A stretch of 27,387 nt of DNA, from positions 1 through 27,387 of the IMG/VR virus record IMGVR_UViG_3300014890_000018, one strand, 5' to 3'. This document shows, piece after piece, positions 2,688-26,255 of this stretch. The translations under genes were made by a program, and so were the position numbers. Source of the DNA: a virus. Taxonomy: Duplodnaviria > Heunggongvirae > Uroviricota > Caudoviricetes. The notes under the pieces were generated by a model that had not been told where the DNA came from, searched no databases, and worked only from the letters and a program-made list of their open reading frames with translations. The stretch's first letter is position 1. Every line of letters starts with the position of its first letter.

Positions 2688-3078
2688 CGCCTTTTCTCCC
2701 CGGTATTAACTCGCGTGGATTATCGGAGCGGTGATAGAGCCAGATGCCAATTCGCACTGCGACGATTGCTGACACGAATGCGCCGGCAGAGAAAACAATC
2801 CCTTTCTCGAAGGAATCCTGTGTGATGGTAGGGATCAGGCTGGCTATGCCGATAAGAATTGATGCTGCTGGTTTGTAAAAAAGAAGGCCGCAAAGAAAGC
2901 TGAGCATCGACAGGACTACCCGGCGGCGGATCGGATATTCGACAGCAGAGGTAACAAAAATCACAGCTCCAGCAAGGGAGCCTAAAGCCACCTCAGGAGG
3001 TGCTCCTGCTATAACCGCCGCCAGAGAACTCATGCTAAGCCACTGATTTAAAGACTCATTGGTTATCTGAACTGACAT
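2674..3078 (-). CDS. Holin-like membrane protein (134 aa from ATG at 3078)
   Basis: Multiple predicted TM helices (LSMSSLAAVIAGAPP, LAGAVIFVTSAV, LSMLSFLCGLLFY, ASILIGIASLI, GAFVSAIVAVRIGIWLY); first gene of the lysis cassette. The track start at 3087 is a GTG; ATG at 3078 preferred. Confidence 0.6.
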   Translation of the reverse strand: MSVQITNESLNQWLSMSSLAAVIAGAPPEVALGSLAGAVIFVTSAVEYPIRRRVVLSMLSFLCGLLFYKPAASILIGIASLIPTITQDSFEKGIVFSAGAFVSAIVAVRIGIWLYHRSDNPRELIPGRKGDGNA

Positions 3079-3193
3079 AAAAACCACCGTTTAATGTGCA
3101 TGAAGAACCACCTTAGTATGGGGTTCACCATGCATATTAAACCATATATGAATAGTTATTACCTCTACATCAATTAAATCACTATCATATAAA

Positions 3194-5779
3194 TTACATC
3201 TGGTTATTAATTTTCATTTCAATATTTTTAATGCGCTCAACCAATCCTCGCATAATGAAACGATCAAGTTCTTGATCTCGGAATTGCCACAAATCTCCTG
3301 CTTTCTTAACTAATTTTTTTTCACCAGTACTCACAGGAATAATGAATTTTTCACCATTTTGATCCGTAATTAACTCATCTTTAATGACATCTTCATATAC
3401 ATCATCCCATTTGTCATACCCTATAAATCCATAATCTCGCCAGTCCAGGCCCTCATCCTCTAAAACAGCAATAACTGCCTGAACAGTGGTGCCAGAGTGC
3501 AACCTTTTAGAATCATCATCAATCCATGTCCAGAAACCTAGCAGATCAGCCACTTTAATTGCTGCATTAATTTCAGATTTGGTGAATCCGCGAATCGGGT
3601 CTTTAAGACGCCCATCTGAACTTGACTGGGTTCCTCCGGCAAAATAACCAATGTTATATCGTAGTGATGCGCTACCTATATTTGAAGTGGCATCAGTTCC
3701 AGGAGTTATTCCTCCTGACGTTGCTATTTGCATTGCTGGAGTAGATCCAGACCCACCATGTCTGAACTGTAATTGACCTACACTGTTGTATTGTGTTCTC
3801 ATGAACCAAGATGTAGCATTGCCATTACTGAGCAGGCCAAGAATAGCATCAGAACCAGATGGAGCCGATACAGTGTACATTCCTGTCTTAGTGAGTGACG
3901 TCATGGTTTCTCCATCCTTGCTGACCAATAGTCTGTCGGAGCTTGCATCCATCATCACTTTCCATCCTGTAGACCCATCAGCAGCATTCTTCGTAAACTG
4001 AATTGATGCGTCACCAATATTCCCATCAGAGCCAAGAATTGCAACGGTATAACCGCCTGCTGGGTCTTTACCCACAACTCCAAATCTACCGTTTAGCGGA
4101 TCGCCTGAAACTATTATTTTTACAGGAATCACTCCGGCAAAATTGTCATTAAATATCTGAGAAATATAATTCATGCGCATGCCATAAAAACTAACGCCTC
4201 TCTTTACATTCTCAGAACCAATAAAAGTCGGAATATCTGAATTTGTAATACCATAAGGTGATTGCTCTACCACACCACCATAAAACTGGATGTTGGATGC
4301 GTGATCAAATTCTAATGCATGATTAGCTCTGGTTCTAAACTCACAGCCATAAAAGTAATGCCCATTTATTTCAGCGGATGTCGCATTAACATCACCATCT
4401 ATATAAAGGCATCGCCATGTGTTTGCGCTAGAGTAATAAGAAACAAGCTCTTCATGAGACATTGATGCACGACTGTGGTGATCAAGGGTATAAATACCAC
4501 ATTTATCTACTCTAGTTCCGCTGAGACCATAACTTGCAGGCCCAGTGTTTGAACCAAGAATTGCTAAACCGACTCGCCCCATAGTTGACCCACCAGTAAT
4601 GGTATTGTAATCAGGGTCATCGTTTCCTTGCTTTGACTGAATTATTGTACCTGCTTTTGAAAAGTATCCGAATACACAAACATCCTCCTGAAGATTTCTT
4701 GCAGAGTCATCGTAATAAACCCCACACTCATAATCTGCACGTTGGTCTTCATCAGGTTTTGTGTGATTACCGATGGAATCATAACAAATCATGTCTTGAA
4801 CCACGGCAATGCCTTTAAGGACAGATCCACTTGAACCATATTCTGGAGAAAGAACTCTCACGCAATATCGAACACTTGCGAAATGATCGTCTCTGTTATC
4901 TGTAGTAGCTATCTTTGTTCCTGCTCCAGAAAATATAAACGTAGCACCAGGCATATTTTCTTTTCTACCTTCAGCAAGAAAGAATTTGTCATCATCAGTA
5001 CCAAATCCAAGAACAGGAGAACCATTACCAATGAATCGAAAATCACCAGGTATTTCTATACCATCAGAGAATCGATAAACCCCATCAGGAACAAAAAAAG
5101 TTTTCTTTCCAGATGCAAGCAAAGCCTGCCACTGCGTTAAGTTGTCCGTTTTATAGTCACCTTTTAATCCAAAATCGGTTATGCTGACTGTATCTCGCAT
5201 CTTATCCTGGAACGTTCGATATATCGCACCAGAACCATACTGAATAAACCAACCAAAACCACCAACAACTCCGGCGATTGCAGCATCAACATAATTACGC
5301 ATTGAGCGATTATTTACAGCATCCTGCTCAAGTGATGGATCTGCAAGGTTAGAAATTCTGTTTTGCTTTGCATCGTAATATTTTGCAAGCAAAGATGGTT
5401 TCATCAATGCACGTCTGAACCACCCAAAACATTGCTGGATCAGCATCGTCAGGTAGTCAAAAGCATCTTCATGCACTTCGGGGAAAAATTTTCCCTGATT
5501 GCGAAGGTCTGTCTCCTGCACTACATCAAGCACACGATCTATCGTAATTCGCCATCCAGCAGCAAGCGGCGACGGAAGAACAACAGAACCGCCACTATAA
5601 GTGCCCGCCCCAGTTACCGTATAACCGGTATCCAGAACCAATTCTGTTACGTTCCCGTTCAGGTCAGACACCTGAACAACCAGGTCGGATTTTTTGAAAA
5701 TACGGAAGGTATACGGAAATGATGTCGTAGCGCCGTTACCGGTGTATTCGTTGTGGTCAACTTCGGTTGAGACCGTCAT
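3194..5779 (-). CDS. Tailspike / tail fibre: conserved N-terminal anchor, low-GC central domain (probable glycan depolymerase), C-terminal intramolecular chaperone (peptidase S74-like)
   Basis: 861 aa. N-terminus (MTVSTEVDHNEYTGNGATTSFPYTF...) matches the conserved N-terminal domain of podovirus tail fibres/spikes. C-terminal ~135 aa follow a SSDGRLKD motif, the S-D-x-R-x-K autocleavage signature of S74 chaperone domains. RBS GGAG 7 nt upstream. Strong AT-shift over roughly 3.2-5.5 kb versus the 5' end. Confidence 0.85.
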   Translation of the reverse strand: MTVSTEVDHNEYTGNGATTSFPYTFRIFKKSDLVVQVSDLNGNVTELVLDTGYTVTGAGTYSGGSVVLPSPLAAGWRITIDRVLDVVQETDLRNQGKFFPEVHEDAFDYLTMLIQQCFGWFRRALMKPSLLAKYYDAKQNRISNLADPSLEQDAVNNRSMRNYVDAAIAGVVGGFGWFIQYGSGAIYRTFQDKMRDTVSITDFGLKGDYKTDNLTQWQALLASGKKTFFVPDGVYRFSDGIEIPGDFRFIGNGSPVLGFGTDDDKFFLAEGRKENMPGATFIFSGAGTKIATTDNRDDHFASVRYCVRVLSPEYGSSGSVLKGIAVVQDMICYDSIGNHTKPDEDQRADYECGVYYDDSARNLQEDVCVFGYFSKAGTIIQSKQGNDDPDYNTITGGSTMGRVGLAILGSNTGPASYGLSGTRVDKCGIYTLDHHSRASMSHEELVSYYSSANTWRCLYIDGDVNATSAEINGHYFYGCEFRTRANHALEFDHASNIQFYGGVVEQSPYGITNSDIPTFIGSENVKRGVSFYGMRMNYISQIFNDNFAGVIPVKIIVSGDPLNGRFGVVGKDPAGGYTVAILGSDGNIGDASIQFTKNAADGSTGWKVMMDASSDRLLVSKDGETMTSLTKTGMYTVSAPSGSDAILGLLSNGNATSWFMRTQYNSVGQLQFRHGGSGSTPAMQIATSGGITPGTDATSNIGSASLRYNIGYFAGGTQSSSDGRLKDPIRGFTKSEINAAIKVADLLGFWTWIDDDSKRLHSGTTVQAVIAVLEDEGLDWRDYGFIGYDKWDDVYEDVIKDELITDQNGEKFIIPVSTGEKKLVKKAGDLWQFRDQELDRFIMRGLVERIKNIEMKINNQM

Positions 5780-5832: not shown

Positions 5833-5896
5833 ATTACCTGAAAAACCACATATGGATAGATAACCCATAAATACGAAAAGATATTACCTTTCAGGT
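5833..5896. promoter_or_regulatory. Divergent regulatory region A (between the tailspike and the SOS-regulated ORF) carrying the same two motifs as region B
   Basis: AACCACATATG at 5844-5854 and ATTACCTTTCAGGT at 5883-5896, same order and orientation as in region B (spacing 28 vs 40 bp). Confidence 0.5.
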
Positions 5897-5935
5897 GATT
5901 TGCAAAACGTGCTGGATAGCAAACAAATTATTTGA

Positions 5936-5955
5936 TACTGTATATTTATACAGTT
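5936..5955 (+). promoter_or_regulatory. LexA (SOS) box, 18/20 match to consensus
   Basis: TACTGTATATTTATACAGTT versus consensus TACTGTATATATATACAGTA; CTGT-N8-ACAG core intact; lies 20 bp upstream of the ATG at 5975, in the divergent region between the tailspike and the small plus-strand ORF. Confidence 0.75.
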
Positions 5956-5974
5956 ATTGCATGGAGAAGATAAG

Positions 5975-6232
5975 ATGCAGCAGTATCACTATCCACTGGA
6001 AGACGGATTTACCGAAAGGATTCACACGCCGGGAGGCGTCAGGTCACTGGTGGAGGGATCGCACTTGATGAAATTACTCCGGGATCTCGATAAGGATGGA
6101 TTTAATGTCGATGGCCCACTTGCCGAACTGACTGCACTGATTAACTACGTCACCAGCTCACAGATGTCTATGCAGGATCTGCAAACACATCTCGACTATT
6201 GTGCCGAACAATTACGAAAGCAAACCACATAA
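5975..6232 (+). CDS. SOS-regulated small protein (85 aa), function unknown; candidate antirepressor or SOS-induced accessory protein
   Basis: ATG at 5975 with GGAG 8 nt upstream (the track start at 5957 is a TTG); LexA box just upstream; opposite orientation to all flanking structural genes. No motif I recognise. Confidence 0.55.
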   Translation: MQQYHYPLEDGFTERIHTPGGVRSLVEGSHLMKLLRDLDKDGFNVDGPLAELTALINYVTSSQMSMQDLQTHLDYCAEQLRKQTT

Positions 6233-6254
6233 AGAAAAGGCCGCGAAAGCGGCC
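6231..6254 (-). terminator. Rho-independent terminator for the minus-strand secreted-protein gene; hairpin also abuts the stop codon of the plus-strand small ORF
   Basis: Perfect stem ggccgc / gcggcc with GNRA-type loop gaaa at 6239-6254; on the minus strand it is followed by TTTTCTTT (6238-6231). On the plus strand no U-tract follows. Confidence 0.65.
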
Positions 6255-6255
6255 T

Positions 6256-6267
6256 GTGACATGTCAC
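6256..6267. repeat. 12-bp perfect palindrome GTGACATGTCAC, copy 1 of 3
   Basis: Exact string; identical copies at 23979-23990 and 26244-26255; each sits beside an intrinsic-terminator hairpin at a junction between gene modules. Confidence 0.8.
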
Positions 6268-6268
6268 G

Positions 6269-6829
6269 CTACATTGATATATGATTCATAAAGTAGCTTA
6301 GAGATTTACTTCCCAGAAAAGAAATTTCTTTTCCTGGATATGTCGCAATAATTGAGCATGACTTATCCCCGTTAGAGGTAACAAATCCTGAATAACCTAC
6401 TTGTTCTTTACCATTTTGTTGCTTGGCTAAAAAGTAGAGGTAGCTTATCTTTTTGCCCTCTGGGTAAAACTCTGCCAAACCAGTATCGGTGATTGAATAT
6501 TTTATTCTCCCGCCTTGAGTAACGTTTTCCATCTCAAGTTTAGCTATGTCTTTTCTGTTGTATTCAGCATTGATTTTCCTTTCGAAATCAATGTTGTTTT
6601 CAAATGAGTAGGAAGCAACAGTCTGAATAGATGGGAACACGTTTATCTGGATGCCTCCACAGTCGGCACAGGTATAAAGGTATGAATCAGATGGAATCCC
6701 CATAAAAGAAAACTGAGTTACCTTAAATTTATCGCTATCTCCAAAGTATTGAAGTTCGCATTTAACATTTTGCCCTGCAAAAGAAAATGCAGACATTAAT
6801 ATTGAAACAAAAAATATAATTGCCTTCAT
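6269..6829 (-). CDS. AT-rich moron encoding a secreted (signal-peptide) protein of unknown function, 186 aa
   Basis: Signal peptide MKAIIFFVSILMSAFSFAG, no lipobox; four Cys in the mature part; markedly AT-rich versus the upstream virion genes; starts 2 nt after the stop of the 850-aa gene; followed by terminator and palindrome. Confidence 0.65.
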   Translation of the reverse strand: MKAIIFFVSILMSAFSFAGQNVKCELQYFGDSDKFKVTQFSFMGIPSDSYLYTCADCGGIQINVFPSIQTVASYSFENNIDFERKINAEYNRKDIAKLEMENVTQGGRIKYSITDTGLAEFYPEGKKISYLYFLAKQQNGKEQVGYSGFVTSNGDKSCSIIATYPGKEISFLGSKSLSYFMNHISM

Positions 6830-19001: not shown

Positions 19002-19994
19002 TTACACCACGCGGGCTTCTGTTTCCAGAAGCGCATCAGTTTCACGGATTGGTACACCACGGAATGAAGTCCACCACTCGCCTTCTGTCTCTTTTACGCT
19101 GATCGCCAGAGATGTTTTCTCCAGAGATTGCAGATCAAGAGCCTGGCCTACAGTGCGGTTCATGTAGAACACCGGGCGACCCATGCCACGGTTTGGAATG
19201 CGATGCAGTGCTTTAACCATCAACTTCGCAATATTTGCGGCAGAGGAAGGTTCTGAAAGATTGCTGACATCGATGTTTGCAATGCGAACAACATAACGCC
19301 AGTCACGCAGAGCAAGTCCGTTGTCCCATTTGTAATGGGTACGGTAGCCTTCGTACTTGCCGCCATTAGCATCTTCCAGTGTCACCTGGCCTTTATCTTC
19401 CATCTGGATGCCAGCCTTCTGCCCTTTCGGGAAGATGCCATGCACGGTGTTTTCGCCCCACACCACTAACCAGATTGAGGTGTTATCTGTACCCGTGCCA
19501 CCAGCATCAATGATGTTCTGAGCATTACCCGCAGACAGGCTGGAATAGCGGGAGGACAGTCCCATAAACTGCTGAGGGTTAACGCTGGAATCACCATAAA
19601 ACAACGTCTGCGCCATCTGCTGATTCATCGCTTCAATAAATGCGCGGTCTTCAGACAGGCGGAATTCGGCGGTATTACCGTTCAGATCAGCCAGTGACTT
19701 ATCGACTTCAGCATAGGTTTCCAGCATTCCAACGTAATCGGTGACCTGCACTGTGGTTGATTTGCTTGGCTGTACGCCATAGTTCAGCAAACGCCAGGTG
19801 GCTGAAGGTAAACCAGAACGAATGGTGGTTCGGTGTCCGGTAGGAAGGTTCCCTTCGACAAAAGGCATATCCTGAAGGATCGGGTTAGTTTGACCGAGAA
19901 GCTCGATAATCTTATCGACTTTCCCGTTTGGATCGACGCGCTTACCCCAGTCAGCCAGCGTTAGCGCAGTTAAGCCTTTAACAGCCATTGTCAT
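19002..19994 (-). CDS. Major capsid protein (330 aa)
   Basis: Directly downstream of the scaffold gene; strong RBS GAGAGGAA; size typical of HK97-fold podovirus coat proteins; followed by a hairpin. Confidence 0.8.
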   Translation of the reverse strand: MTMAVKGLTALTLADWGKRVDPNGKVDKIIELLGQTNPILQDMPFVEGNLPTGHRTTIRSGLPSATWRLLNYGVQPSKSTTVQVTDYVGMLETYAEVDKSLADLNGNTAEFRLSEDRAFIEAMNQQMAQTLFYGDSSVNPQQFMGLSSRYSSLSAGNAQNIIDAGGTGTDNTSIWLVVWGENTVHGIFPKGQKAGIQMEDKGQVTLEDANGGKYEGYRTHYKWDNGLALRDWRYVVRIANIDVSNLSEPSSAANIAKLMVKALHRIPNRGMGRPVFYMNRTVGQALDLQSLEKTSLAISVKETEGEWWTSFRGVPIRETDALLETEARVV

Positions 19995-20704: not shown

Positions 20705-20997
20705 TCCTGTTCACTGGCCTCTTTGGCCATCTTCAAATACTGTTCAGGGCAATGCGCCATAACGCGCTGAAACAGTTCCAGCGCCAGATTGCGTTGCCCC
20801 TCATTAAATGCCATTGCCATAGCGTCCATCGGTGAGATAGCGGAAAACACACGGCCTTTCTCCAGCACCGACCAGACAACGCGACGCCCCTGTTCACTGC
20901 TCATGACAAAGCGAATGTCATCAATTTCACGCTGTGCCATGTCACGTTGCTTACGGGCGTTTTCTTCTTTCATTTGATCGTCTTCGTAATCTGTCAT
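20701..20997 (-). CDS. Hypothetical small protein between portal and scaffold (98 aa)
   Basis: Translationally coupled at both ends (overlaps the portal stop and the scaffold start); acidic. Confidence 0.5.
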   Translation of the reverse strand: MTDYEDDQMKEENARKQRDMAQREIDDIRFVMSSEQGRRVVWSVLEKGRVFSAISPMDAMAMAFNEGQRNLALELFQRVMAHCPEQYLKMAKEASEQE

Positions 20998-22673
20998 TGT
21001 GATTGCCCACCCTGACCACTAACTGCATTCGCCATAGCTGACAAAACACTCGGATCCGAAGTTTTAGCTTCGCTTAGCGTCTTGGCACCCTGTGCCGCCG
21101 CCATCCCCATCGCCATCATTTGTTGCTGCTGTTGTTGCTGTGCCCGTTGCTGGCGAGCCTGCTCAACCTGTTCCTGCGGAACAATGACGGTTGGAGACAC
21201 TCCGGACATATCAGCGAATGCATCGATCGCCTGATCAACGTTGAGTTTGTCGAGAGCTTCTGGTTTCGCTTGCGCAAGTTGACCAATGAAGTTAACCGTG
21301 GACGCCAGACTGGACAGGCCGATAGACTTCTGCGCCTGAGCCATGACGGAAATGTATTCGACCTTCAGGGGCATGCCTTCCATCGCGTCAGGCGGTGGCG
21401 GCAGCATGTTTTTACGCACCATCATCGAGAAAGCGCGGTCAATGAGAGGATTAAGACATTCGTCGTTCAGACGCTCCAGAACCGGCCCCAACATCAGAAG
21501 TTTTTCTTCTTTCATTTCGATCACTGCTTCAACAGGCATCGAGCGGGTATTGATGTTGTGCAACATCATGAACAGATCGACAAAGTAGGCGCTGTTAATG
21601 ATTTGGCGAGTGTCCTGAATGTCTGCTACCAGATCTGCTGTACTGGGGTTAACCAGATAAGCAGGCCTGAAACCATCCTGACCAGTAATCTGATCGATAT
21701 ACGTGATGTCGCCAGGAAGAAGGGATGCGCGCTGATTCTTGAGGGAAGTCGGAGCAACCATCGGCGGATTGGTGGCTTTATCAATCAACTGCGACTTACG
21801 CTTCTGGAGAAGCTGCAATGCCTTAACAGGTCCAAGCGCCAGCATACCCGGGCATGATGATCCATAAACATCTTCGCCGTTAACTTCCCAGCGCGGAGCC
21901 ATAATTGGAAACTCATCGAATCCGGACTCACGCAACAACTTGTCGTTATCGCCGCCAACCTCGTAATAAACCGATTTGAATGGCTTGTTCTTGCTATCCA
22001 GCTTCGATGTATCGCGGTCAATGTTCGGGTAAACCGAATGCATCACTTCAATCCACTTCTCGTAGGTGCCGCTTTCCCACATGCTTTTTACGGATTCGCT
22101 GACGTTATTTAGCCCGAACTCCTGAACAAGCTGACGAACAGTCATAGAGAACTTGCGAAAACAGGTGTCCACACTGCCACGAGGTGAGTTAGCCAGGTAG
22201 TAACTGCCTATAGGGAATGGCATTGTGCGAATGATGTCCTCGTCATCATCCAGCACCGCCATTGCACCAGTGCTGTATGTGCCGAGGCTTCCGTATAACT
22301 GCGGCAGCGACTGATAGAGATTCGACTTATTGAACATATCGTTCATGCGGTTCTGCACCGCCTCAAGCCACAACTTAACAGGGCCATAATCCATCATTTC
22401 AGGATCTGGCGTAGCCAGGCGAAACCACGGACGCGCGGGGCTTGTGATGCCTGACATCATGCCGCTGGCGAGAGTGCGCGCCGCCATAGTCCCGGTCGAA
22501 TCAATAATGCGTGTATTGCGTCGATCGTTACGGTTGACCTCAGAAGTCAGAAAGCGGGAACCACGCGGGTTGATGTAATCACTCAACTCGCGCCAGTGCG
22601 GCTCGAACGACTGACGCTCGCTTTCAAGTTGTGCGAACTGTTTGTTCAATCGCTCTTTAGTTGTTTCCGCCAT
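20994..22673 (-). CDS. Portal (head-to-tail connector) protein, T7-type (559 aa)
   Basis: Size and position downstream of the terminase genes; Gln-rich C-terminal tail (QQRAQQQQQQQMMAMGMAAAQ); RBS GGAG 8 nt upstream. Confidence 0.85.
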   Translation of the reverse strand: MAETTKERLNKQFAQLESERQSFEPHWRELSDYINPRGSRFLTSEVNRNDRRNTRIIDSTGTMAARTLASGMMSGITSPARPWFRLATPDPEMMDYGPVKLWLEAVQNRMNDMFNKSNLYQSLPQLYGSLGTYSTGAMAVLDDDEDIIRTMPFPIGSYYLANSPRGSVDTCFRKFSMTVRQLVQEFGLNNVSESVKSMWESGTYEKWIEVMHSVYPNIDRDTSKLDSKNKPFKSVYYEVGGDNDKLLRESGFDEFPIMAPRWEVNGEDVYGSSCPGMLALGPVKALQLLQKRKSQLIDKATNPPMVAPTSLKNQRASLLPGDITYIDQITGQDGFRPAYLVNPSTADLVADIQDTRQIINSAYFVDLFMMLHNINTRSMPVEAVIEMKEEKLLMLGPVLERLNDECLNPLIDRAFSMMVRKNMLPPPPDAMEGMPLKVEYISVMAQAQKSIGLSSLASTVNFIGQLAQAKPEALDKLNVDQAIDAFADMSGVSPTVIVPQEQVEQARQQRAQQQQQQQMMAMGMAAAQGAKTLSEAKTSDPSVLSAMANAVSGQGGQSQ

Positions 22674-22687
22674 TTCAATGACTCCGG

Positions 22688-22894
22688 TTACTGACCAAGT
22701 AGCGTTTTACCGCTGGTATTAGCGGTTGATGTGTCGCCCTGAGAACCGGTAAGCAGCGTAGAACTACGACCAGCAGCAGCGCGACGACGACGTGTTTCTT
22801 CGTCGCGGGCATCAACAACGGCGGCATCCTGCTCCTGTGGTGCTGCCTGAACTTCTGGTGTTGCAGGCACTGATGGTGAGCTACCCATGCACAT
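22688..22894 (-). CDS. Possible small ORF upstream of portal (68 aa), low-complexity
   Basis: ATG preceded by the same 11-nt translation-initiation sequence as the portal gene (GGAGTCATTGA + 1 nt + ATG); its stop overlaps the portal RBS. Protein is low-complexity, so coding status is uncertain. Confidence 0.35.
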   Translation of the reverse strand: MCMGSSPSVPATPEVQAAPQEQDAAVVDARDEETRRRRAAAGRSSTLLTGSQGDTSTANTSGKTLLGQ

Positions 22895-22922
22895 ATCAAT
22901 GACTCCGTACGCAATTAAATTA

Positions 22923-22998
22923 TTACCAATTTAACCACATATGATTTATTTATCGTAGATAGTTGACATTTAACGCACAAATTATTACCTTTCAGGTA
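22923..22998. promoter_or_regulatory. Divergent regulatory region B (between the portal unit and the tRNA cassette) carrying the shared motifs AACCACATATG and ATTACCTTTCAGGT
   Basis: AACCACATATG at 22934-22944; ATTACCTTTCAGGT at 22985-22998 containing the inverted repeat TACCT-TTC-AGGTA; TTGACA at 22964-22969 on the plus strand; minus strand reads TTGTGC-N17-TACGAT (promoter-like). Confidence 0.5.
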
Positions 22999-23049
22999 AG
23001 CAAAGAGTTCATTCCGGTTATTAACCTGACTGGCTTGTCGTTAAATTGA

Positions 23050-23321
23050 ACAGGTGGAGTGAGCTTTTATTTTGAGCAGTACGGCGTATGGCACATGCGA
23101 CGATAGCGGTCTGGATACGTTTAAGGGGCACCCTCCCTTGCTCGGGCAAACGAACCAGGTAGCCGGAATGTGCAAGTCGAGCGGTTTTATTCCGCGCACG
23201 GGGATTCACCATCCCGGCGATTCGGTGTGACGCCTCGGAAGAGACGAGGGTACAACGATGAGAGCATTTATGGAGCCGCGACAAAGTGTGGCGCCTTAAC
23301 AGGCTAAGTGCTCTCAGCGTT
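23050..23321 (+). ncRNA. Candidate structured non-coding RNA or long tRNA leader upstream of tRNA-Arg
   Basis: About 270 bp of GC-rich sequence with several local hairpins (gcgg-ttttatt-ccgc; cggg-N9-cccg; cctcg-gaagaga-cgagg) and no convincing ORF on either strand; sits between a promoter-like region and the tRNA. Confidence 0.3.
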
Positions 23322-23398
23322 GTGGCATTAGCTCAGCTGGACAGAGCAACCGCCTTCTAAGCGGTTGGTCGCAGGTTCGAATCCTGCATGCCACGCCA
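23322..23398 (+). tRNA. tRNA-Arg (anticodon UCU, reads AGA), phage-encoded
   Basis: 77-nt cloverleaf read by hand: acceptor GTGGCAT/ATGCCAC, D-stem GCTC/GAGC, anticodon stem ACCGC/GCGGT with loop CTTCTAA (anticodon TCT), T-stem GCAGG/CCTGC with loop TTCGAAT, discriminator G, encoded CCA. Resembles the enterobacterial argU tRNA but differs in the stems. Confidence 0.9.
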
Positions 23399-23441
23399 GA
23401 ATCACGCCTAAGGACCGTGATGCCAGAAGTTCCAGGGGCTT

Positions 23442-23483
23442 GGCGGTGATGGTTTCCCTTGAAGGACTATCACCGCCCTTTTT
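23442..23483 (+). terminator. Rho-independent terminator after the tRNA
   Basis: 9-bp stem ggcggtgat / atcaccgcc with an 18-nt loop, followed by cTTTTT. Confidence 0.5.
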
Positions 23484-23561
23484 ACAGCAGGACGCCATTG
23501 CGATGACTTCATGCTGTAAACCAGTACAGCCACGGAAGGCATAACTCATTGCTTCCAGTTC

Positions 23562-23584
23562 GCCCGGTTCGCCGGGCATTTTTT
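23562..23584 (+). terminator. Strong rho-independent terminator (UUCG tetraloop) immediately upstream of the 125-aa ORF
   Basis: Stem gcccgg / ccgggc, loop ttcg, then aTTTTTT; only 12 nt before the ATG at 23597. Confidence 0.65.
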
Positions 23585-23596
23585 AAAGGTGAGATT

Positions 23597-23974
23597 ATGA
23601 ACGACCAGCAAATCGAAAAAGAAATCGTTGAGAAAGGCAAAACGGCACCGCGAATCACCCCGCAGCACATCGAAGACGTGATTATTAGTGAGCACTATTT
23701 CACGGCTGCAGAAGGGGTTCATGGCGCTAATGAGCTTTTAAAACCGCATGAAAGCCCAATTGACTATTACCAGGAAGCGCACCCTGCTGAGTCACTTCTG
23801 ACCTTCTGCGTTCTGGTGCTGCGCAACGGATTTACTGTAACCGGAGAAAGCGCCTGTGCAAGCCCGGAAAACTTTGATGCAGAAATTGGTCGGAAGATTG
23901 CCCGGCAGAATGCTGTAAACAAAATCTGGATGCTTGAAGGTTACTTGCTGAAGCAGAAGTTAAGCGAGCAATAA
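23597..23974 (+). CDS. Hypothetical protein (125 aa) in the tRNA cassette, function unknown
   Basis: ATG at 23597 with RBS AAAGGTGAG 4-12 nt upstream (the track ORF starts earlier at 23549); plus strand, antisense to the structural operon; followed by palindrome and terminator. Confidence 0.6.
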   Translation: MNDQQIEKEIVEKGKTAPRITPQHIEDVIISEHYFTAAEGVHGANELLKPHESPIDYYQEAHPAESLLTFCVLVLRNGFTVTGESACASPENFDAEIGRKIARQNAVNKIWMLEGYLLKQKLSEQ

Positions 23975-23978
23975 CACC

Positions 23979-23990
23979 GTGACATGTCAC
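23979..23990. repeat. 12-bp perfect palindrome GTGACATGTCAC, copy 2 of 3
   Basis: Exact string 5 nt after the stop of the 125-aa ORF and 4 nt before a terminator hairpin; between the convergent 125-aa ORF and TerL. Confidence 0.8.
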
Positions 23991-23994
23991 AAAC

Positions 23995-24021
23995 AGCCAG
24001 CCTATGAGCTGGCTTTGTTTT
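23995..24021 (+). terminator. Rho-independent terminator ending the plus-strand tRNA/ORF cassette
   Basis: Stem agccagc / gctggct with loop ctatga, followed by ttgtttt. Confidence 0.55.
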
Positions 24022-24064
24022 ATCCTCATCAGAGGATATCAACGACATTATCCCCACCAGCGGA

Positions 24065-25540
24065 TTAAGCATAAGGGTCATAATCCGTTATGGCCCTTCC
24101 CTGCTGGCTTTGCTGTCCTGGTATATTTATGCGTTTCGAGACCGGGAAAGCAAACGTCAGCAGTAGCGCATCGCCTTTACCCGGAGAACGCCCAAGCCGC
24201 TCCTTGATATCTTCCTTCGGTTCGATAACGACTTTACCGTCCACTCGAACTTTGTACTCTGCCGCCGACAGGTCGTCTGCAGTTTCCTGGTCATCCAGCA
24301 TGCCGCCGAGCCTCAGCCATGTCTTGCATGAGTTGAACATCTCCCCACGCTTGTTAAGCATCTGCGGGTCAGTGGACGCACCGCCGAACGGAACAAGTTG
24401 CCATGTACGTCCCCAGCCATCACCGATTGACTTCAAACCGGTTCCGTAACCGAAGTCGATGAACACTGCGTCAGCCTGGTACTGGTCTTCAAAGTCAGCG
24501 ATACGCTTCGCCATAATCAGATCGTCAGTGGTCTTGTTGCCAGTCCATAGCACCTTACTGTGCAGCCCCTGCCGCAGGTATATCACAGCGTCATCAACGC
24601 CGGAGTATGCCGGGTCAACGCCGATTATCACCGGAGCATGTGCAACCTGCGCAGCGGTTACCACCCGTTTCATTGCCTCGTCAGTAAGGCCGGTAGGGAT
24701 AAACTGTAATTCAGATGCATCAGGGAATATGCCGCGCACACGGATTTTAACGAAGTCGCTGTCTTCCCCGTAGTCATCAACCCATTTCTGCAACTGCTGT
24801 TTGTTAGTGCCTTCCACCGTCCGGCTGTCAATCTGCGCAGTTTTCCAGCGGTGTTTATATTTGCGGAAACATTCGCGGAAACGCCCGGTGTTACGTGTAG
24901 GGTTTCCGAACGCCACCCAGATAATCTCAGTGTCTTCGTCCGTAAGCGCACCCTCAGCAACTTCCCACACCAGATCCGCAATGTTCGACGCTTCATCGAA
25001 TACCACGATGATGCGTTTGCGCTCGTTGTGTAGTCCGGCGAATGCCTCAGTGTTGTGCTCAGACCAGGGTATTGCGTCAGCTCGCCACCGCTTGTCGTGC
25101 CCAGGGTCATTGCTGTACATCGCGGTAGCGGTACAGGTAAACCAGTCTTTCGTGATAGCAAGGTTCGACCACTTGATAATTTCCGGCCAGGTCTTCGTTC
25201 GTAGCTGGTTGTCGGTGTTGGCGGTCACCACGACCTTACAATCCTCGCAAGTGGACATGCCCCAGTTGATCAGCATTGAGATGAATGCGGATTTACCAAT
25301 ACCGTGACCAGAAGCACGTGCCAGCATAAGCGGCTGATATCGCGTCTCTGGATTCTGCAGGTGATCACGTATCTCTCGGAACGCATCGGCCTGCCACTGA
25401 CGTGGACCGGTGGCATGTGCCAGTTCAGTACCCTCTTCCCCCCACGGGAACGCATAGAGGGCATAGCCAAGCGGATCGTGAGTGAACCCTGCAATATCCT
25501 CGATTAACTGCTCTTCAGGAGATAACGCTGTATCTGTCAC
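24065..25540 (-). CDS. Terminase large subunit (491 aa)
   Basis: Walker A-type motif ARASGHGIGKSAF near the N-terminus, acidic nuclease-type C-terminal half, ATGA-type overlap with the TerS stop. Confidence 0.9.
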   Translation of the reverse strand: MTDTALSPEEQLIEDIAGFTHDPLGYALYAFPWGEEGTELAHATGPRQWQADAFREIRDHLQNPETRYQPLMLARASGHGIGKSAFISMLINWGMSTCEDCKVVVTANTDNQLRTKTWPEIIKWSNLAITKDWFTCTATAMYSNDPGHDKRWRADAIPWSEHNTEAFAGLHNERKRIIVVFDEASNIADLVWEVAEGALTDEDTEIIWVAFGNPTRNTGRFRECFRKYKHRWKTAQIDSRTVEGTNKQQLQKWVDDYGEDSDFVKIRVRGIFPDASELQFIPTGLTDEAMKRVVTAAQVAHAPVIIGVDPAYSGVDDAVIYLRQGLHSKVLWTGNKTTDDLIMAKRIADFEDQYQADAVFIDFGYGTGLKSIGDGWGRTWQLVPFGGASTDPQMLNKRGEMFNSCKTWLRLGGMLDDQETADDLSAAEYKVRVDGKVVIEPKEDIKERLGRSPGKGDALLLTFAFPVSKRINIPGQQSQQGRAITDYDPYA

Positions 25541-26133
25541 TGATTGCCATCCTGACGTTCTTTCAGTCTCTTCCTGGCTGCCGCTATGCGATCAGCAATT
25601 GTCACATTCACATTAACATCCAGGCGTTCTTTGAATGCGTTGACGTCGACGTGCTTACCAATCAGTTCGAGGTTCTTCACCTTGTCAGGCCATTTAATTT
25701 TTTTGAGGATTGTCTCTATCGAATCCTCGTTCATGTTCATGATGGTCGATGACAGATCAAAGCCACTAAGCGTAGTGCGCCAGATTTTCGGCCACTCGCG
25801 GATTGGCTTAAGGCTCCCATCGTCGTTGAGGATGTCGATCACGTCCATCTGGTCGATCTCCACCAGGCGCATGAGAACGTAATCAGCACTGACGCGCATT
25901 CGTTTGTTGCGCTCCTCCATCAACTCGGCAATCCGTTTTTGAATGCGTTCATCGCGCATCATGACACTGGCTTTAACTGCCGCTGTATTTGGGGAGAATC
26001 CTGCGTTAATCGCTGCCTGAGTCTGGTTTTCAGGCGTTTTGATGTATGACTGGCAATAAGCCTCCTGCATTGCTGTTAGTGGCTTAAATTGCGTTGATTT
26101 GCGTTTATAGGTTTTAGGTTCAGCAGGCATCAT
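25537..26133 (-). CDS. Terminase small subunit (about 198 aa from ATG at 26133)
   Basis: N-terminal helix-turn-helix segment AMQEAYCQSYIKTPENQTQAAINAGFSPNTAAVKASVMM is typical of small-terminase DNA-binding domains; directly upstream of and overlapping TerL. The track start at 26211 is a TTG inside the upstream terminator/repeat region; ATG at 26133 (or 26130) preferred. Confidence 0.8.
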   Translation of the reverse strand: MMPAEPKTYKRKSTQFKPLTAMQEAYCQSYIKTPENQTQAAINAGFSPNTAAVKASVMMRDERIQKRIAELMEERNKRMRVSADYVLMRLVEIDQMDVIDILNDDGSLKPIREWPKIWRTTLSGFDLSSTIMNMNEDSIETILKKIKWPDKVKNLELIGKHVDVNAFKERLDVNVNVTIADRIAAARKRLKERQDGNQ

Positions 26134-26140
26134 AACCACC

Positions 26141-26169
26141 GTGGTAATAGTTACCGTTGTGGTAATAGT
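26141..26169. repeat. Two direct repeats of GTGGTAATAGT, 18 bp apart, just upstream of the TerS start
   Basis: Exact 11-mers at 26141-26151 and 26159-26169, between a minus-strand terminator and the TerS ATG. Confidence 0.7.
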
Positions 26170-26175
26170 ACCATG

Positions 26176-26202
26176 CAAAATAAAGCCGCCATAGTTGGCG
26201 GC
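26176..26202 (-). terminator. Rho-independent terminator on the minus strand, upstream of the terminase genes
   Basis: Perfect 7-bp stem gccgcca / tggcggc with 4-nt loop at 26185-26202, followed on the minus strand by TTTATTTTG. Confidence 0.6.
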
Positions 26203-26243
26203 AGTATTCAAAACACATCAAATTCATCATGCATAATATACTC

Positions 26244-26255
26244 GTGACATGTCAC
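26244..26255. repeat. 12-bp perfect palindrome GTGACATGTCAC, copy 3 of 3
   Basis: Exact string overlapping the stop codon of the 112-aa gene and about 40 bp from the terminator hairpin upstream of TerS. Confidence 0.8.

What the first reader, a model, noticed from the sequence alone, without database searches (positions are those of the whole stretch)
22915..24064. Plus-strand tRNA-Arg(UCU) cassette inserted antisense between large terminase and portal
A complete, well-folded tRNA-Arg reading the rare AGA codon sits on the opposite strand inside the packaging/head operon. It is preceded by about 270 bp of hairpin-rich non-coding sequence and followed by two intrinsic terminators, a 125-aa ORF, a GTGACATGTCAC palindrome and a third terminator. 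The cassette looks like a self-contained insertion. The tRNA could support translation of the AT-rich, AGA-rich acquired genes such as the tailspike and the secreted protein.
Basis: partly seen in the sequence, partly recalled or inferred. Interest (0 to 1): 0.52.

Follow-up and report, generated by a model that had tools for sequence, protein, structure and literature searches.

The report
tRNA embedded in unannotated phage RNA
The tRNA-Arg gene is real but already known in related phages; what matters is that it sits inside a larger, conserved, folded RNA that no database or annotation I checked describes, although about a third of complete E. coli genomes and phage P1 carry it.

Summary
There is a tRNA-Arg(UCU) at 23322-23398 (+), three plus-strand terminators, a 125-aa ORF and the GTGACATGTCAC palindrome. 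The window is a phiV10-like (Uetakevirus) prophage, and relatives already annotate this tRNA.

The "hairpin-rich non-coding" DNA upstream is the real finding. It is a conserved, pseudoknotted RNA domain (23080-23323) with strong covariation. It has no Rfam 15 match and no annotation in any record examined.

It occurs in Uetakeviruses, lambdoid phages (mEp460, Stx2c phages), P1-like plasmids and 1840 of 5426 complete E. coli genomes. In each setting it lies in a transcription unit whose promoter carries, or appears to carry, repressor operators.

The tRNA is an interchangeable module. Other phages carry tRNA-like mimics in that slot, and P1 has the core alone. A conserved hairpin and terminator close the unit at about 23485.

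The ORF belongs to PF13876, the Acb4 anti-CBASS sponge family.

The cassette is shared across the genus, not a recent insertion. Epsilon15-like phages carry a deleted remnant.

The function of the RNA domain is not known. The two leading ideas are a stable, processed, trans-acting early RNA and a put/EAR-like cis antiterminator.

The parts
22963..22999 (+). Putative cassette promoter: -35 TTGACA at 22963-22968, a 17-nt spacer, and a weak -10 TACCTT at 22986-22991. It overlaps the palindrome TTACCTTTCAGGTAA (22985-22999), which looks like an operator.
   Evidence: Read from the sequence. The consensus scan did not call this promoter because the -10 is weak. The same TTGACA and palindrome are kept in the E15-like phage. 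TTACC-N5-GGTAA occurs 15 times in phiV10 against 0.9 expected, clustered around repressor gene p40 and in intergenic regions. That it is an operator is an inference.
23080..23323 (+). Conserved structured RNA domain, the 5' domain, with helices P1-P6.
   Evidence: Alignment A1 holds 97 distinct sequences. 95.9% of cells are paired, against 27-38% when the 3' partners are slid. Twelve pairs show changes on both sides, and 0 of 500 shuffles reach the covariation score. An independent genome set A2 gives 95.1% paired, 11 compensatory pairs and 0/500 on all five measures. Model R1 scores the window copy 176 bits. There is no Rfam hit at E<=10.
23082..23102 (+). P1 hairpin: 23082-23089 pairs with 23095-23102, with the conserved loop GGCAC. 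This window copy has a G.A mismatch at 23084/23100.
   Evidence: one pair switches G-C to A-U in 30 of 97 sequences. phiV10 has G-C at the position that is mismatched here.
23107..23165 (+). P2: an invariant base (23107-23110 with 23162-23165) and a covarying part (23111-23114 with 23155-23158) enclosing a variable extension.
   Evidence: one pair is U-A in 50 sequences and C-G in 47. CCAC/GUGG variants are also seen.
23158..23176 (+). Invariant 19-mer GGTAGCCGGAATGTGCAAG. Positions 23170-23173 can pair with the P1 loop at 23091-23094 (candidate pseudoknot PK1).
   Evidence: It is invariant in A1, but all 97 sequences were collected through this 19-mer or contain it, so invariance there is partly by construction. 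At least 120 IMG/VR contigs hold an exact match. Of 24 genome contigs with an exact match, 23 are real elements. PK1 is complementary in 99.7% of cells but never varies, so covariation does not test it.
23176..23227 (+). P3 (23176-78 with 23216-18), a variable hairpin, P4 (23201-05 with 23211-15, loop UCACC), and pseudoknot PK2 (23207-10 with 23224-27).
   Evidence: P4 has three pairs with changes on both sides. One PK2 pair is C-G in 77 sequences and A-U in 20.
23233..23249 (+). P5 hairpin CCUCG-GAAGAGA-CGAGG with a conserved purine-rich loop.
   Evidence: four of the five pairs show changes on both sides.
23252..23323 (+). P6, a long helix (23252-23270 with 23305-23323) around a variable insert. 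Its 3' strand abuts, and overlaps by 2 nt, the tRNA 5' end.
   Evidence: All 25 distinct strand pairs from other loci fold into a duplex. The duplex spans 16-18 bp in 24 of them and is weak in one (L102). The variants are compensatory.
23322..23398 (+). tRNA-Arg(UCU) with encoded CCA, the module embedded in the larger RNA.
   Evidence: Thirty of 133 loci have this tRNA directly after P6. Others carry tRNA-like modules that start with GUGG and, in most, end with CCAC.
23401..23421 (+). P7 hairpin AUCACG-CCUAAGGAC-CGUGAU in the 3' trailer.
   Evidence: It is conserved downstream of the tRNA or tRNA-like slot in many loci.
23442..23485 (+). Terminator T1: a 14-bp stem followed by CUUUUU. This is the conserved 3' end of the RNA unit.
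   Evidence: The GGCGGUG...CACCGCC stem recurs in lambdoid and Uetakevirus loci.
23486..23585 (+). A second non-coding segment ending in the strong terminator T2 (23562-23577 plus a T-run), 12 nt before the ribosome-binding site of the ORF.
   Evidence: It is conserved in the E15-like phage, with compensatory changes in the T2 stem.
23597..23974 (+). 125-aa ORF of the Acb4 (anti-CBASS 4) family, PF13876.
   Evidence: Pfam PF13876, E 6.3e-36, 123 bits against a cut-off of 27. There is a weak direct match to the Acb4 structure 9e4w_A, E 0.005. PMC11722364 equates PF13876 with the Acb4 sponge family.
23979..24022 (+). Palindrome GTGACATGTCAC (23979-23990) and terminator T3 (stem-loop 23995-24014, then a U-rich tail to about 24022).
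   Evidence: The palindrome occurs exactly three times in the window, against 0.05 expected.

Best explanation
The region 22963-23485 is one non-coding gene, probably under repressor control. It encodes a composite RNA of roughly 480 nt, of which about 410 nt (23080-23485) are conserved. The RNA has three parts:
- a conserved, pseudoknotted 5' domain (P1-P6);
- an embedded tRNA-Arg(UCU);
- a 3' hairpin and an intrinsic terminator.

The fold, its conservation and its modular build are shown.

The following steps are inferred. RNase P cuts at 23321/23322, and normal tRNA 3' trimming follows. This releases a working AGA-decoding tRNA and a separate 5' RNA of about 320 nt, about 245 nt of it conserved, whose 3' end is locked into helix P6. 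That RNA then acts on its own early in lytic growth, most likely by binding a conserved host component.

Transcription that reads through T1 and T2 expresses an Acb4-family anti-CBASS sponge. On this reading the cassette is an early host-adaptation and counter-defence unit.

The molecular target of the 5' domain is unknown.
For: Structure:
- Two alignments support the fold, one of them independent of the set used to derive it.
- P6 keeps pairing through compensatory variants.
- A covariance model finds 23 of 24 untrained genome loci at 125-179 bits.

An RNA gene independent of the tRNA:
- 85 of 133 loci have no tRNA call next to the element.
- 30 have tRNA-Arg directly 3' of it.
- 18 P1-type loci have tRNA-Ile2 directly 5' and only the P1-P5 core.

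Processing signal:
- The slot after P6 holds either the tRNA or modules with a tRNA-like outline: a 7-bp acceptor-like stem, a 2-nt linker, a 4-bp D-like stem, and a T-like stem joined to the acceptor 3' strand.
- These modules also show covarying loop-loop pairing, GCUGAU/AUCAGC against GCUAAU/AUUAGC.
- These are the parts RNase P reads (established knowledge). The anticodon region, which RNase P does not need, is the part that varies.

Discrete unit:
- A promoter lies in front of the element.
- A sequence-conserved terminator lies behind it.

Early, repressor-controlled expression:
- In lambdoid phages the element follows a CI-type repressor gene (Pfam HTH + S24). It sits behind a promoter carrying a palindrome that is also found in the cI-cro region.
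- In P1 it lies in the ban operon, whose promoter is annotated as C1-controlled. That operon also carries a dicF-like region and three tRNAs.
- Here the promoter overlaps a palindrome that is over-represented 15-fold in phiV10 and clusters around the repressor gene.

Cargo: the ORF matches PF13876, the Acb4 family.
Against: - There is no expression or processing data for any member.
- The window promoter has a weak -10, and the consensus scan did not call it.
- In P1 the core has no terminator or tRNA-like module after it, so a discrete released RNA is less obvious there.
- Genes without their own promoter follow the terminators in Uetakeviruses and lambdoids. That pattern fits a cis antitermination role at least as well.
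- Epsilon15-like phages have lost the core, so any function is dispensable.
- The tRNA-like reading of the substitute modules rests on inspecting a few dozen sequences, not on a statistical test.
Confidence: 0.45

Rival explanations
1. The 5' domain is a cis-acting processive antiterminator that works like HK022 put or Bacillus EAR. As it emerges from RNA polymerase it binds the enzyme and lets it read through T1, T2 and later terminators. Only transcription that starts at the early promoter would then reach the Acb4-like gene here, the early-left genes in lambdoids, or ban in P1.
For: - In lambdoid phages the element is the first thing transcribed from the pL-like promoter. That is the position of nutL and putL.
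- No N-like Arg-rich ORF follows it there.
- A conserved terminator follows the element, and then same-strand genes with no predicted promoter.
- T2 sits 12 nt before the ribosome-binding site of the Acb4-like ORF.
- Some loci carry further RNA modules after the terminator.
- The P1 version is mid-operon, just before ban. By my recollection, EAR also lies inside its operon.
- The invariant single-stranded 19-mer suggests a highly conserved host target such as RNA polymerase.
Against: - There is no sequence or structure similarity to put. Model R1 finds nothing in HK022. put is about 70 nt with two stem-loops (PMC9378689), whereas this domain is about 245 nt with 6 helices.
- The hypothesis does not explain why a tRNA or tRNA-like module is kept between the core and the terminator.
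- In Uetakeviruses the unit is not at the head of an early operon. It is a separate unit with a single small cargo gene.
- The E15-like deletion keeps the terminators and an intact Acb4 gene.
- The mEp phage collection was isolated as Nus-dependent (PMC11893012), whereas put needs no dedicated protein factor (PMC9378689). I did not confirm that mEp460 or mEp390 were themselves tested.
- The terminator stem is conserved in sequence, which suggests it is part of the RNA product.
Confidence: 0.28
2. This is the first reader's view: an ordinary tRNA moron. The upstream DNA is only a long structured leader. The sole function of the unit is to supply tRNA-Arg(UCU) for AGA-rich acquired genes.
For: - The tRNA is intact and resembles E. 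coli argU by my recollection; I did not compare the sequences.
- AGA runs at 4.6 per 1000 codons in the window and 16 per 1000 in the tailspike.
- Phage tRNAs for rare codons are common (established knowledge).
Against: - The leader is better conserved than most of the phage. It shows compensatory evolution and an invariant 19-mer.
- It occurs with no tRNA call next to it in 85 of 133 loci and in nearly all representative bacterial genomes sampled.
- Ordinary pre-tRNA leaders are short and not conserved (established knowledge).
Confidence: 0.07
3. The element is a large nut-like site. P5, a 5-bp stem with a purine-rich GAAGAGA loop, would act as a boxB for an unidentified N-like protein. The UGCUCUUU stretch on the P6 3' strand of some members would act as boxA for NusB/NusE.
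For: - By my recollection of the literature, the P5 loop resembles lambda nutL boxB (GAAGA) and UGCUCUUU matches the rrn boxA core.
- The mEp phages were isolated as Nus-dependent (PMC11893012).
- The element sits in the pL leader position.
Against: - The boxA-like stretch is base-paired and covaries with its partner, UGCUCUC against UGCGCUC. Selection is therefore on the helix, not on a boxA sequence.
- The order is boxB-like then boxA-like, about 70-130 nt apart.
- No N-like ORF was found.
- P1 and the Uetakeviruses are not known to encode an N protein.
- One subclass replaces P5 with a different hairpin.
Confidence: 0.05
4. The upstream region is a decayed or unrecognised protein-coding gene, or plain host DNA.
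For: Mechanical ORFs exist at 23021-23284 (-), 23072-23230 (+) and 23328-23579 (-). Some GenBank records call them hypothetical proteins.
Against: - None of these ORFs has a Pfam match.
- Homologues differ by 1-2-nt indels and by whole variable hairpins.
- Substitutions are compensatory within helices.
- One annotated ORF lies antisense to the tRNA.
- The element is found in prophages, phages and P1-type plasmids. It is present in 34% of E. coli genomes, not all, so it is not core host DNA.
Confidence: 0.02

Closest known systems
GOLLD and ROOL RNAs (large ornate phage and prophage RNAs of unknown function)
   Same: These are phage- or prophage-encoded, large, multi-helix RNAs with pseudoknots. 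They lie next to tRNA genes, and GOLLD sometimes has tRNAs inside its variable linker (PMC12286853). Like GOLLD, the RNA here has a conserved part and a variable, modular part.
   Different: There is no sequence or structure match; Rfam holds both families and neither hit. The RNA here is smaller, about 245 nt for the core and about 410 nt for the unit, against roughly 580 nt for ROOL (my recollection) and over 800 nt for many GOLLD RNAs. It is found in Enterobacteriaceae temperate phages. It sits in early transcription units that carry, or appear to carry, repressor operators. Whether it forms oligomers was not tested.
HK022 put RNA (putL/putR) and Bacillus EAR: RNA-only processive antiterminators
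   Same: In lambdoid phages the element is in the pL leader, ahead of terminators and promoterless genes. It needs no translation to act. By my recollection, the mid-operon position in P1 recalls EAR.
   Different: put is about 70 nt with two stem-loops (PMC9378689). Model R1 finds nothing in HK022. The element carries tRNA or tRNA-like modules and its own conserved terminator. Antitermination activity has not been tested.
tRNA-like 3'-end formation of long non-coding RNAs (MALAT1-mascRNA, MEN-beta), and RNase P processing of the phage P1/P7 C4 RNA
   Same: A tRNA or a tRNA-shaped mimic directly follows a structured RNA. RNase P could therefore create the 3' end of the upstream RNA. The tRNA-like modules keep their acceptor, D-like and T-like parts but vary in the anticodon region.
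   Different: The comparison rests on my own knowledge of those systems. No RNase P cleavage has been shown here. Some family members lack any tRNA-like module: the P1 type, and a class in which P6 runs straight into the terminator.
Phage-encoded rare-codon tRNAs, such as argU-like tRNA-Arg(UCU), the ileZ-argN-argO tRNAs of Stx phages, and P1 trnI
   Same: The tRNA reads AGA, a rare codon that is enriched in the low-GC tailspike. It is already annotated in O157 typing phages 9 and 10, SPN9TCW and phiv142-3.
   Different: This tRNA is embedded in a conserved larger RNA and can be exchanged for non-decoding mimics.
Acb4 anti-CBASS sponge (Bacillus phage SPO1; PF13876)
   Same: The 125-aa ORF matches PF13876 at E 6e-36. 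It aligns weakly to the solved Acb4 chain 9e4w_A. All eight family members tested bound 3'3'-cGAMP (PMC11722364).
   Different: It has an N-terminal extension of about 20-65 residues relative to the 97-aa SPO1 protein. Ligand binding was not tested for this member.

Membership tests
tRNA (Rfam RF00005), isoacceptor Arg-UCU | Cloverleaf that scores above the Rfam gathering threshold | tested here: met
   71.7 bits against a threshold of 29. ARAGORN also calls it.
tRNA (Rfam RF00005), isoacceptor Arg-UCU | Anticodon UCU, the ArgRS identity elements A20 and C35, and an encoded 3' CCA | tested here: met
   The anticodon is tct. A20, C35 and CCA at 23396-23398 were read from the sequence. The identity rules come from established knowledge.
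tRNA (Rfam RF00005), isoacceptor Arg-UCU | Expressed, processed and aminoacylated | not testable with these tools
   This needs Northern blots or tRNA-seq.
HK022 put RNA family | An RNA of about 70 nt with two stem-loops and sequence similarity to putL/putR | tested here: not met
   The domain is about 245 nt with 6 helices. Model R1 has no hit in the HK022 genome at E<=1. The put description is from PMC9378689.
HK022 put RNA family | Located just downstream of an early promoter and ahead of terminators | tested here: met
   This holds for the lambdoid loci L004, L009 and L012. It holds here too if the promoter assignment at 22963 is right.
HK022 put RNA family | Makes RNA polymerase resistant to terminators in cis, through the beta-prime zinc-binding domain | not testable with these tools
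   This needs read-through assays and rpoC mutants.
GOLLD / ROOL | Match to the Rfam covariance models for these families | tested here: not met
   Nothing but tRNA was found in the window at the gathering threshold or at E<=10. No hit on the element at the gathering threshold in 12 other loci.
GOLLD / ROOL | A phage-encoded large structured RNA associated with tRNAs | tested here: met
   The context described for GOLLD and ROOL is in PMC12286853.
GOLLD / ROOL | Homo-oligomeric RNA-only cage | not testable with these tools
   This needs cryo-EM or native gels.
lambda-type nut site | Single-stranded boxA followed within about 10 nt by a boxB hairpin, together with an N-type protein | tested here: not met
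   The boxA-like stretch is paired and covaries. The order and spacing are wrong. No N-like ORF was found downstream.
Acb4 anti-CBASS sponge (PF13876) | PF13876 domain above the curated cut-off | tested here: met
   123.2 bits against a cut-off of 27, E 6.3e-36, covering profile positions 1-82 of 82.
Acb4 anti-CBASS sponge (PF13876) | A tetramer that sequesters 3'3'-cGAMP and related signals | not tested
   No structure prediction or binding assay was done. All eight homologues tested in PMC11722364 bound 3'3'-cGAMP.
Recently inserted moron cassette | Present in this phage but absent at the same site in close relatives | tested here: not met
   The cassette is at the same site in phiV10, typing phage 9, SPN9TCW and BUCT711, the core is there in Tyrion, and a deleted form is there in an E15-like phage.
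Rho-independent terminators | A G+C-rich hairpin followed by a U-run | tested here: met
   Three sites on the + strand. Their efficiency is not testable here.

The most novel reading that the evidence does not exclude
The 5' domain founds a new class of phage RNA made as the first product of repressor-controlled early promoters in three unrelated temperate phage types. It uses a tRNA or a tRNA mimic as a built-in RNase P signal to set its own 3' end, which would be a bacterial parallel to MALAT1-mascRNA. It then acts as an RNA-only regulator. It either makes RNA polymerase resistant to terminators without any phage protein, by a fold unrelated to put, or it neutralises a host defence or host factor before any phage protein exists.
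Probability: 0.3. Interest if true: 0.85.

Novelty: new variant of a known kind. Interest (0 to 1): 0.74.

Why it matters
A large, covarying, pseudoknotted RNA is present in 1840 of 5426 complete E. coli genomes. It is also in Stx2c-converting phages, O157 typing phages and the textbook phage P1, between trnI and ban. Yet it is absent from Rfam 15, and no record examined annotates it as an RNA.

If it is an RNA-only antiterminator or an early counter-defence RNA, that would change how early gene control in many enterobacterial temperate phages is read. It would also give a genetically tractable E. coli relative of the GOLLD/ROOL problem.

It also changes how phage tRNA genes should be viewed. 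Here the tRNA is a swappable module of a bigger RNA.

In practical terms, the covariance model could annotate thousands of prophages. The neighbouring ORF adds an Acb4-type anti-CBASS gene to Uetakeviruses.

Tried and rejected
- Rfam. The gathering-threshold scan of the window, the E<=10 scan of 22850-24100, and the scan of 12 other loci gave only tRNA, plus unrelated C4 and isrK RNAs elsewhere.
- Coding hypothesis. ORFs in 23021-23284 and 23328-23579 have no Pfam hit, and the indel pattern is not codon-like.
- A first RNAalifold run and a naive helix scan gave a partly wrong or noisy structure. One example is 23098-23102 pairing with 23215-23219, which is supported only by one-sided wobble changes. 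I replaced these with a hand-built model and tested that model.
- put homology. Nothing was found in HK022 with the model.
- The boxA/boxB reading of P5 and P6 is rejected, because the boxA-like strand covaries as part of a helix.
- Literature. Searches for the invariant 19-mer, phiV10 with tRNA-Arg, P1 trnI/ban, tRNA-like prophage RNAs, N-independent lambdoid phages and Uetakevirus tRNA found no description of the element.
- The 19-mer hit in an Oscillospiraceae MAG (L143) is a chance match inside what reads as coding sequence.
- A search for a promoter between T1 and the ORF found none.
- My first P6 extraction script used a wrong offset and was redone.
Full report
**1. What is in the window**

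The window is a phiV10-like (genus Uetakevirus, epsilon15 group) prophage. The stretch 22600-24400 is 96-99% identical over the aligned parts to phiV10, O157 typing phages 9 and 10, TL-2011b, ZX5 and others.

The minus strand carries the small terminase (25537-26211), the large terminase (24065-25540), a gp3-like gene (22688-22894) and the portal (20994-22673).

On the plus strand, ARAGORN and Rfam both find one tRNA, Arg(UCU), at 23322-23398. Rfam scores it 71.7 bits, E 4.6e-14.

Terminator-like sites lie at 23442-23477, 23562-23577 and 23995-24014. The ORF is 23597-23974 (125 aa). The palindrome GTGACATGTCAC is at 23979-23990.

The tRNA is not new: several GenBank relatives annotate it.

**2. 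The upstream "non-coding" DNA is a conserved structured RNA**

A sensitive DNA search with 23060-23321 found the same roughly 245 nt in 89 phage records and 591 plasmids, at 70-83% identity outside the close relatives. The carriers include:
- Uetakeviruses: phiV10, SPN1S, BUCT711, Tyrion;
- lambdoid phages: mEp460, cdtI, Ayreon, Stx2c-converting phages, mEp390, BUCT708;
- P1, P7, D6, SJ46 and RCS47, and the P1-type plasmids;
- Klebsiella phage SopranoGao.

It is either unannotated or covered by "hypothetical protein" calls.

It also matched 24 contigs of representative bacterial genomes. Of these, 23 are real elements from about a dozen Enterobacterales genera plus one short contig binned as a Bacillota MAG, and one is a chance hit.

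In complete E. coli genomes, 1840 of 5426 have a match, and 1473 have a match covering at least 80% of the query. Every listed hit shows "none" under annotated features.

Rfam 15 has no match, either in the window at E<=10 or at the gathering threshold in 12 other loci.

**3. Structure**

From 97 distinct sequences (alignment A1) I derived the following helices, in window coordinates:

| Helix | 5' strand | 3' strand | Note |
|---|---|---|---|
| P1 | 23082-89 | 23095-102 | loop GGCAC |
| P2 base | 23107-10 | 23162-65 | invariant |
| P2 upper | 23111-14 | 23155-58 | covaries; encloses a variable extension |
| P3 | 23176-78 | 23216-18 | |
| P4 | 23201-05 | 23211-15 | loop UCACC |
| P5 | 23233-37 | 23245-49 | loop GAAGAGA |
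| PK1 | 23091-94 | 23170-73 | candidate pseudoknot |
| PK2 | 23207-10 | 23224-27 | candidate pseudoknot |

On A1, 95.9% of cells form standard pairs. When the 3' partners are slid, the figure is 27-38%. Twelve pairs change on both sides, in 272 cells, and no shuffle out of 500 reaches the covariation score.

PK2 has one pair that is C-G in 77 sequences and A-U in 20. PK1 never varies, so it is complementary but untested.

A covariance model built on this structure found every true element among the bacterial genome loci, none of which was used to derive it. It also found a single copy each in the window and in phiV10.

On that independent set, 95.1% of cells pair and 11 pairs have compensatory changes. 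All five measures beat 500 of 500 shuffles. The caveat is that this alignment is fitted to the model.

Helix P6 (23252-23270 with 23305-23323) closes a variable insert. Twenty-five distinct strand pairs from other loci all keep a duplex, of 16-18 bp in 24 of them, through compensatory variants.

Indels of 1-2 nt and whole variable hairpins rule out a coding reading. The local ORFs have no Pfam match.

**4. The tRNA is a module inside a larger RNA**

P6 ends in ...AGCGUU|GUGG, and the tRNA starts at that GUGG. Among the 133 loci:
- 30 have tRNA-Arg(UCU) exactly there, even where the inserts differ;
- 18 P1-type loci have tRNA-Ile2(CAU) directly 5' of the core and stop after P5;
- 85 have no tRNA call.

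In many of the loci without a tRNA, the slot holds other modules that start with GUGG and, in most, end with CCAC. The commonest keeps the following tRNA-like parts:
- a 7-bp acceptor-like stem;
- a 2-nt linker;
- a 4-bp D-like stem;
- a T-like stem joined to the acceptor 3' strand.

Two of its loops pair with each other, GCUGAU with AUCAGC. One lineage has GCUAAU with AUUAGC instead, and another has covarying T-like stem changes. The anticodon-arm position carries variable inserts. These are the features RNase P recognises (established knowledge).

After the slot, many loci share a hairpin (here 23401-23421) and a sequence-conserved terminator (here 23442-23485). The conserved unit in the window therefore runs from about 23080 to 23485.

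Some loci repeat the pattern "P6-like hairpin plus module", or carry modules after the terminator.

**5. Genomic setting: transcription units with repressor operators**

*Lambdoid phages.* The element lies directly after the CI-type repressor gene on the same strand (HTH + S24 peptidase). It sits behind a strong promoter, for example TTGACA-16-CATAAT in L004.

In L004 the promoter spacer holds ATGTACC-N5-GATACAT. A near-identical site lies in the cI-cro region. This is the pL/OL position.

*P1.* The element lies between trnI and ban, in an operon whose promoter is annotated as C1-controlled. That operon also holds a dicF-like region and three tRNAs.

*This window.* The promoter -10 region overlaps TTACCTTTCAGGTAA (22985-22999). 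TTACC-N5-GGTAA occurs 15 times in phiV10 against 0.9 expected. The sites cluster around repressor gene p40 and in intergenic regions. I infer that this is the repressor's operator. The ZX5 paper shows that the homologous repressor controls lysis but does not map operators.

**6. History in this genus**

An epsilon15-like phage has the same promoter, P1 and the start of P2 fused straight to the terminator. The junction falls at a 13-nt repeat, TTCCCTTGATGCT, that SPN1S-type copies carry in both places. The model scores this remnant 44 bits.

The cassette is therefore shared across the genus and can be lost. It is not a recent insertion.

**7. The ORF**

The ORF matches PF13876 at E 6.3e-36. PMC11722364 shows that PF13876 is the Acb4 anti-CBASS family of cyclic-dinucleotide sponges, and all eight homologues tested bound 3'3'-cGAMP. 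A weak direct match to the Acb4 crystal-structure chain agrees with this.

No promoter was predicted between T1 and the ORF, and T2 ends 12 nt before its ribosome-binding site. Expression of the ORF therefore seems to need read-through of T1 and T2.

Other Uetakeviruses carry different cargo genes at this spot.

**8.

AGA occurs 38 times in the 8327 codons counted, and 14 of those are in the 41.7%-GC tailspike. A decoding role for the tRNA is plausible. It does not explain the conserved RNA around it.

**9. How it probably works**

Shown:
- the fold;
- its spread across phages, plasmids and genomes;
- its modular build;
- its position behind promoters that carry operator-like sites;
- the terminator at its end.

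Inferred:
- RNase P cuts at 23321/23322. This frees the tRNA and a 5' RNA whose 3' end is held in P6.
- That RNA acts on its own early in lytic growth.

I rate the whole picture, with a trans-acting role, at about 0.45.

The main rival, at about 0.28, is a cis antiterminator working like put or EAR. It better explains the terminators followed by promoterless genes, and the P1 arrangement. It explains the tRNA-like modules and the stand-alone unit in Uetakeviruses less well.

The two are not exclusive. According to PMC9378689, put RNA keeps working when it is no longer tethered to the elongation complex through the nascent transcript.

No data here show expression, processing or function.

**10. 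Novelty**

The tRNA and the cassette layout are already in GenBank. The RNA domain appears undescribed:
- Rfam 15 has no match;
- none of the phage, plasmid or RefSeq records listed annotates it as an RNA;
- ten full-text searches found nothing on it.

The paper library is incomplete, so a prior description cannot be excluded.

In kind, it is closest to the tRNA-associated ornate phage RNAs GOLLD and ROOL, and by position to put. It is a member of neither family.

Noticed in passing
window 5848-6267: There is a second plus-strand cassette with the same upstream motifs: CCACATATGG...ATATTACCTTTCAGGTGA at 5848-5898. It has an 85-aa ORF (5976-6232), a terminator-like hairpin at about 6238-6255 that I read by eye, and the same GTGACATGTCAC palindrome at 6256-6267. 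The two plus-strand units seem to share their control signals.
   Followed up: partly
window 6256-6267, 23979-23990, 26244-26255; phiV10 (L159) 2262-2273 and 19493-19504: The 12-bp palindrome GTGACATGTCAC occurs three times in the window, against 0.05 expected. Two copies sit at the ends of the plus-strand cassettes, and the third lies just beyond the small terminase gene. Its role is unknown.
   Followed up: partly
L159 (phiV10), 15 sites, e.g. 31953, 32015, 32727, 32775, 33112, 35070, 35132: TTACC-N5-GGTAA palindromes are about 16-fold over-represented. They cluster around repressor gene p40 and lie in intergenic regions. They are a candidate operator set for Uetakeviruses, which does not seem to have been mapped.
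   Followed up: partly
L133 (Salmonella phage VB_ST_E15) about 3100-3200: This epsilon15-like phage carries an internally deleted copy of the RNA. P1 and the start of P2 are fused to the terminator at a 13-nt direct repeat. The Acb4-family ORF downstream is intact.
   Followed up: yes
L008 (phage P1, NC_005856) 3001-3169 of the locus = record 71023-71191: Phage P1 has the P1-P5 core of the RNA between trnI and ban. The reference genome does not annotate it. CRISPRi data class trnI and ban as non-essential (PMC10695390).
   Followed up: partly
L004 1775-1963 and L006 1206-1394: C4 antisense RNA and isrK, which are P1 immI-type RNAs, are found by Rfam in the right operon of the mEp460 and Stx2c-type phages, next to an antirepressor-like gene.
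   Followed up: no
L006, L010, L018, L060, L087 and others, just 3' of ...GTTGTGG: These loci carry tRNA-shaped mimics with a variable insert in place of the anticodon arm and no encoded CCA. ARAGORN does not call them, except for an odd 'tRNA-Ile(aat)' call in L137 and L157.
   Followed up: partly
window 3194-5779 and 6269-6829: The tailspike is low in GC (41.7%) and holds 14 of the 38 AGA codons counted. The neighbouring 186-aa ORF is only 35.5% GC. Both look recently acquired.
   Followed up: no
window 23486-23585: A 100-nt segment between T1 and the ORF is conserved in the E15-like phage, with compensatory changes in the T2 stem. It may be a regulatory leader for the Acb4-like gene. It gave only weak terminator-like Rfam hits (RyhB, E 5.4).
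   Followed up: partly
L143 (Oscillospiraceae MAG) and L155 (Bacillota MAG): In L143 the 19-mer is a chance match inside what reads as coding sequence. L155 is a 1.7-kb contig with a true element (179 bits), probably mis-binned enterobacterial phage DNA.
   Followed up: yes
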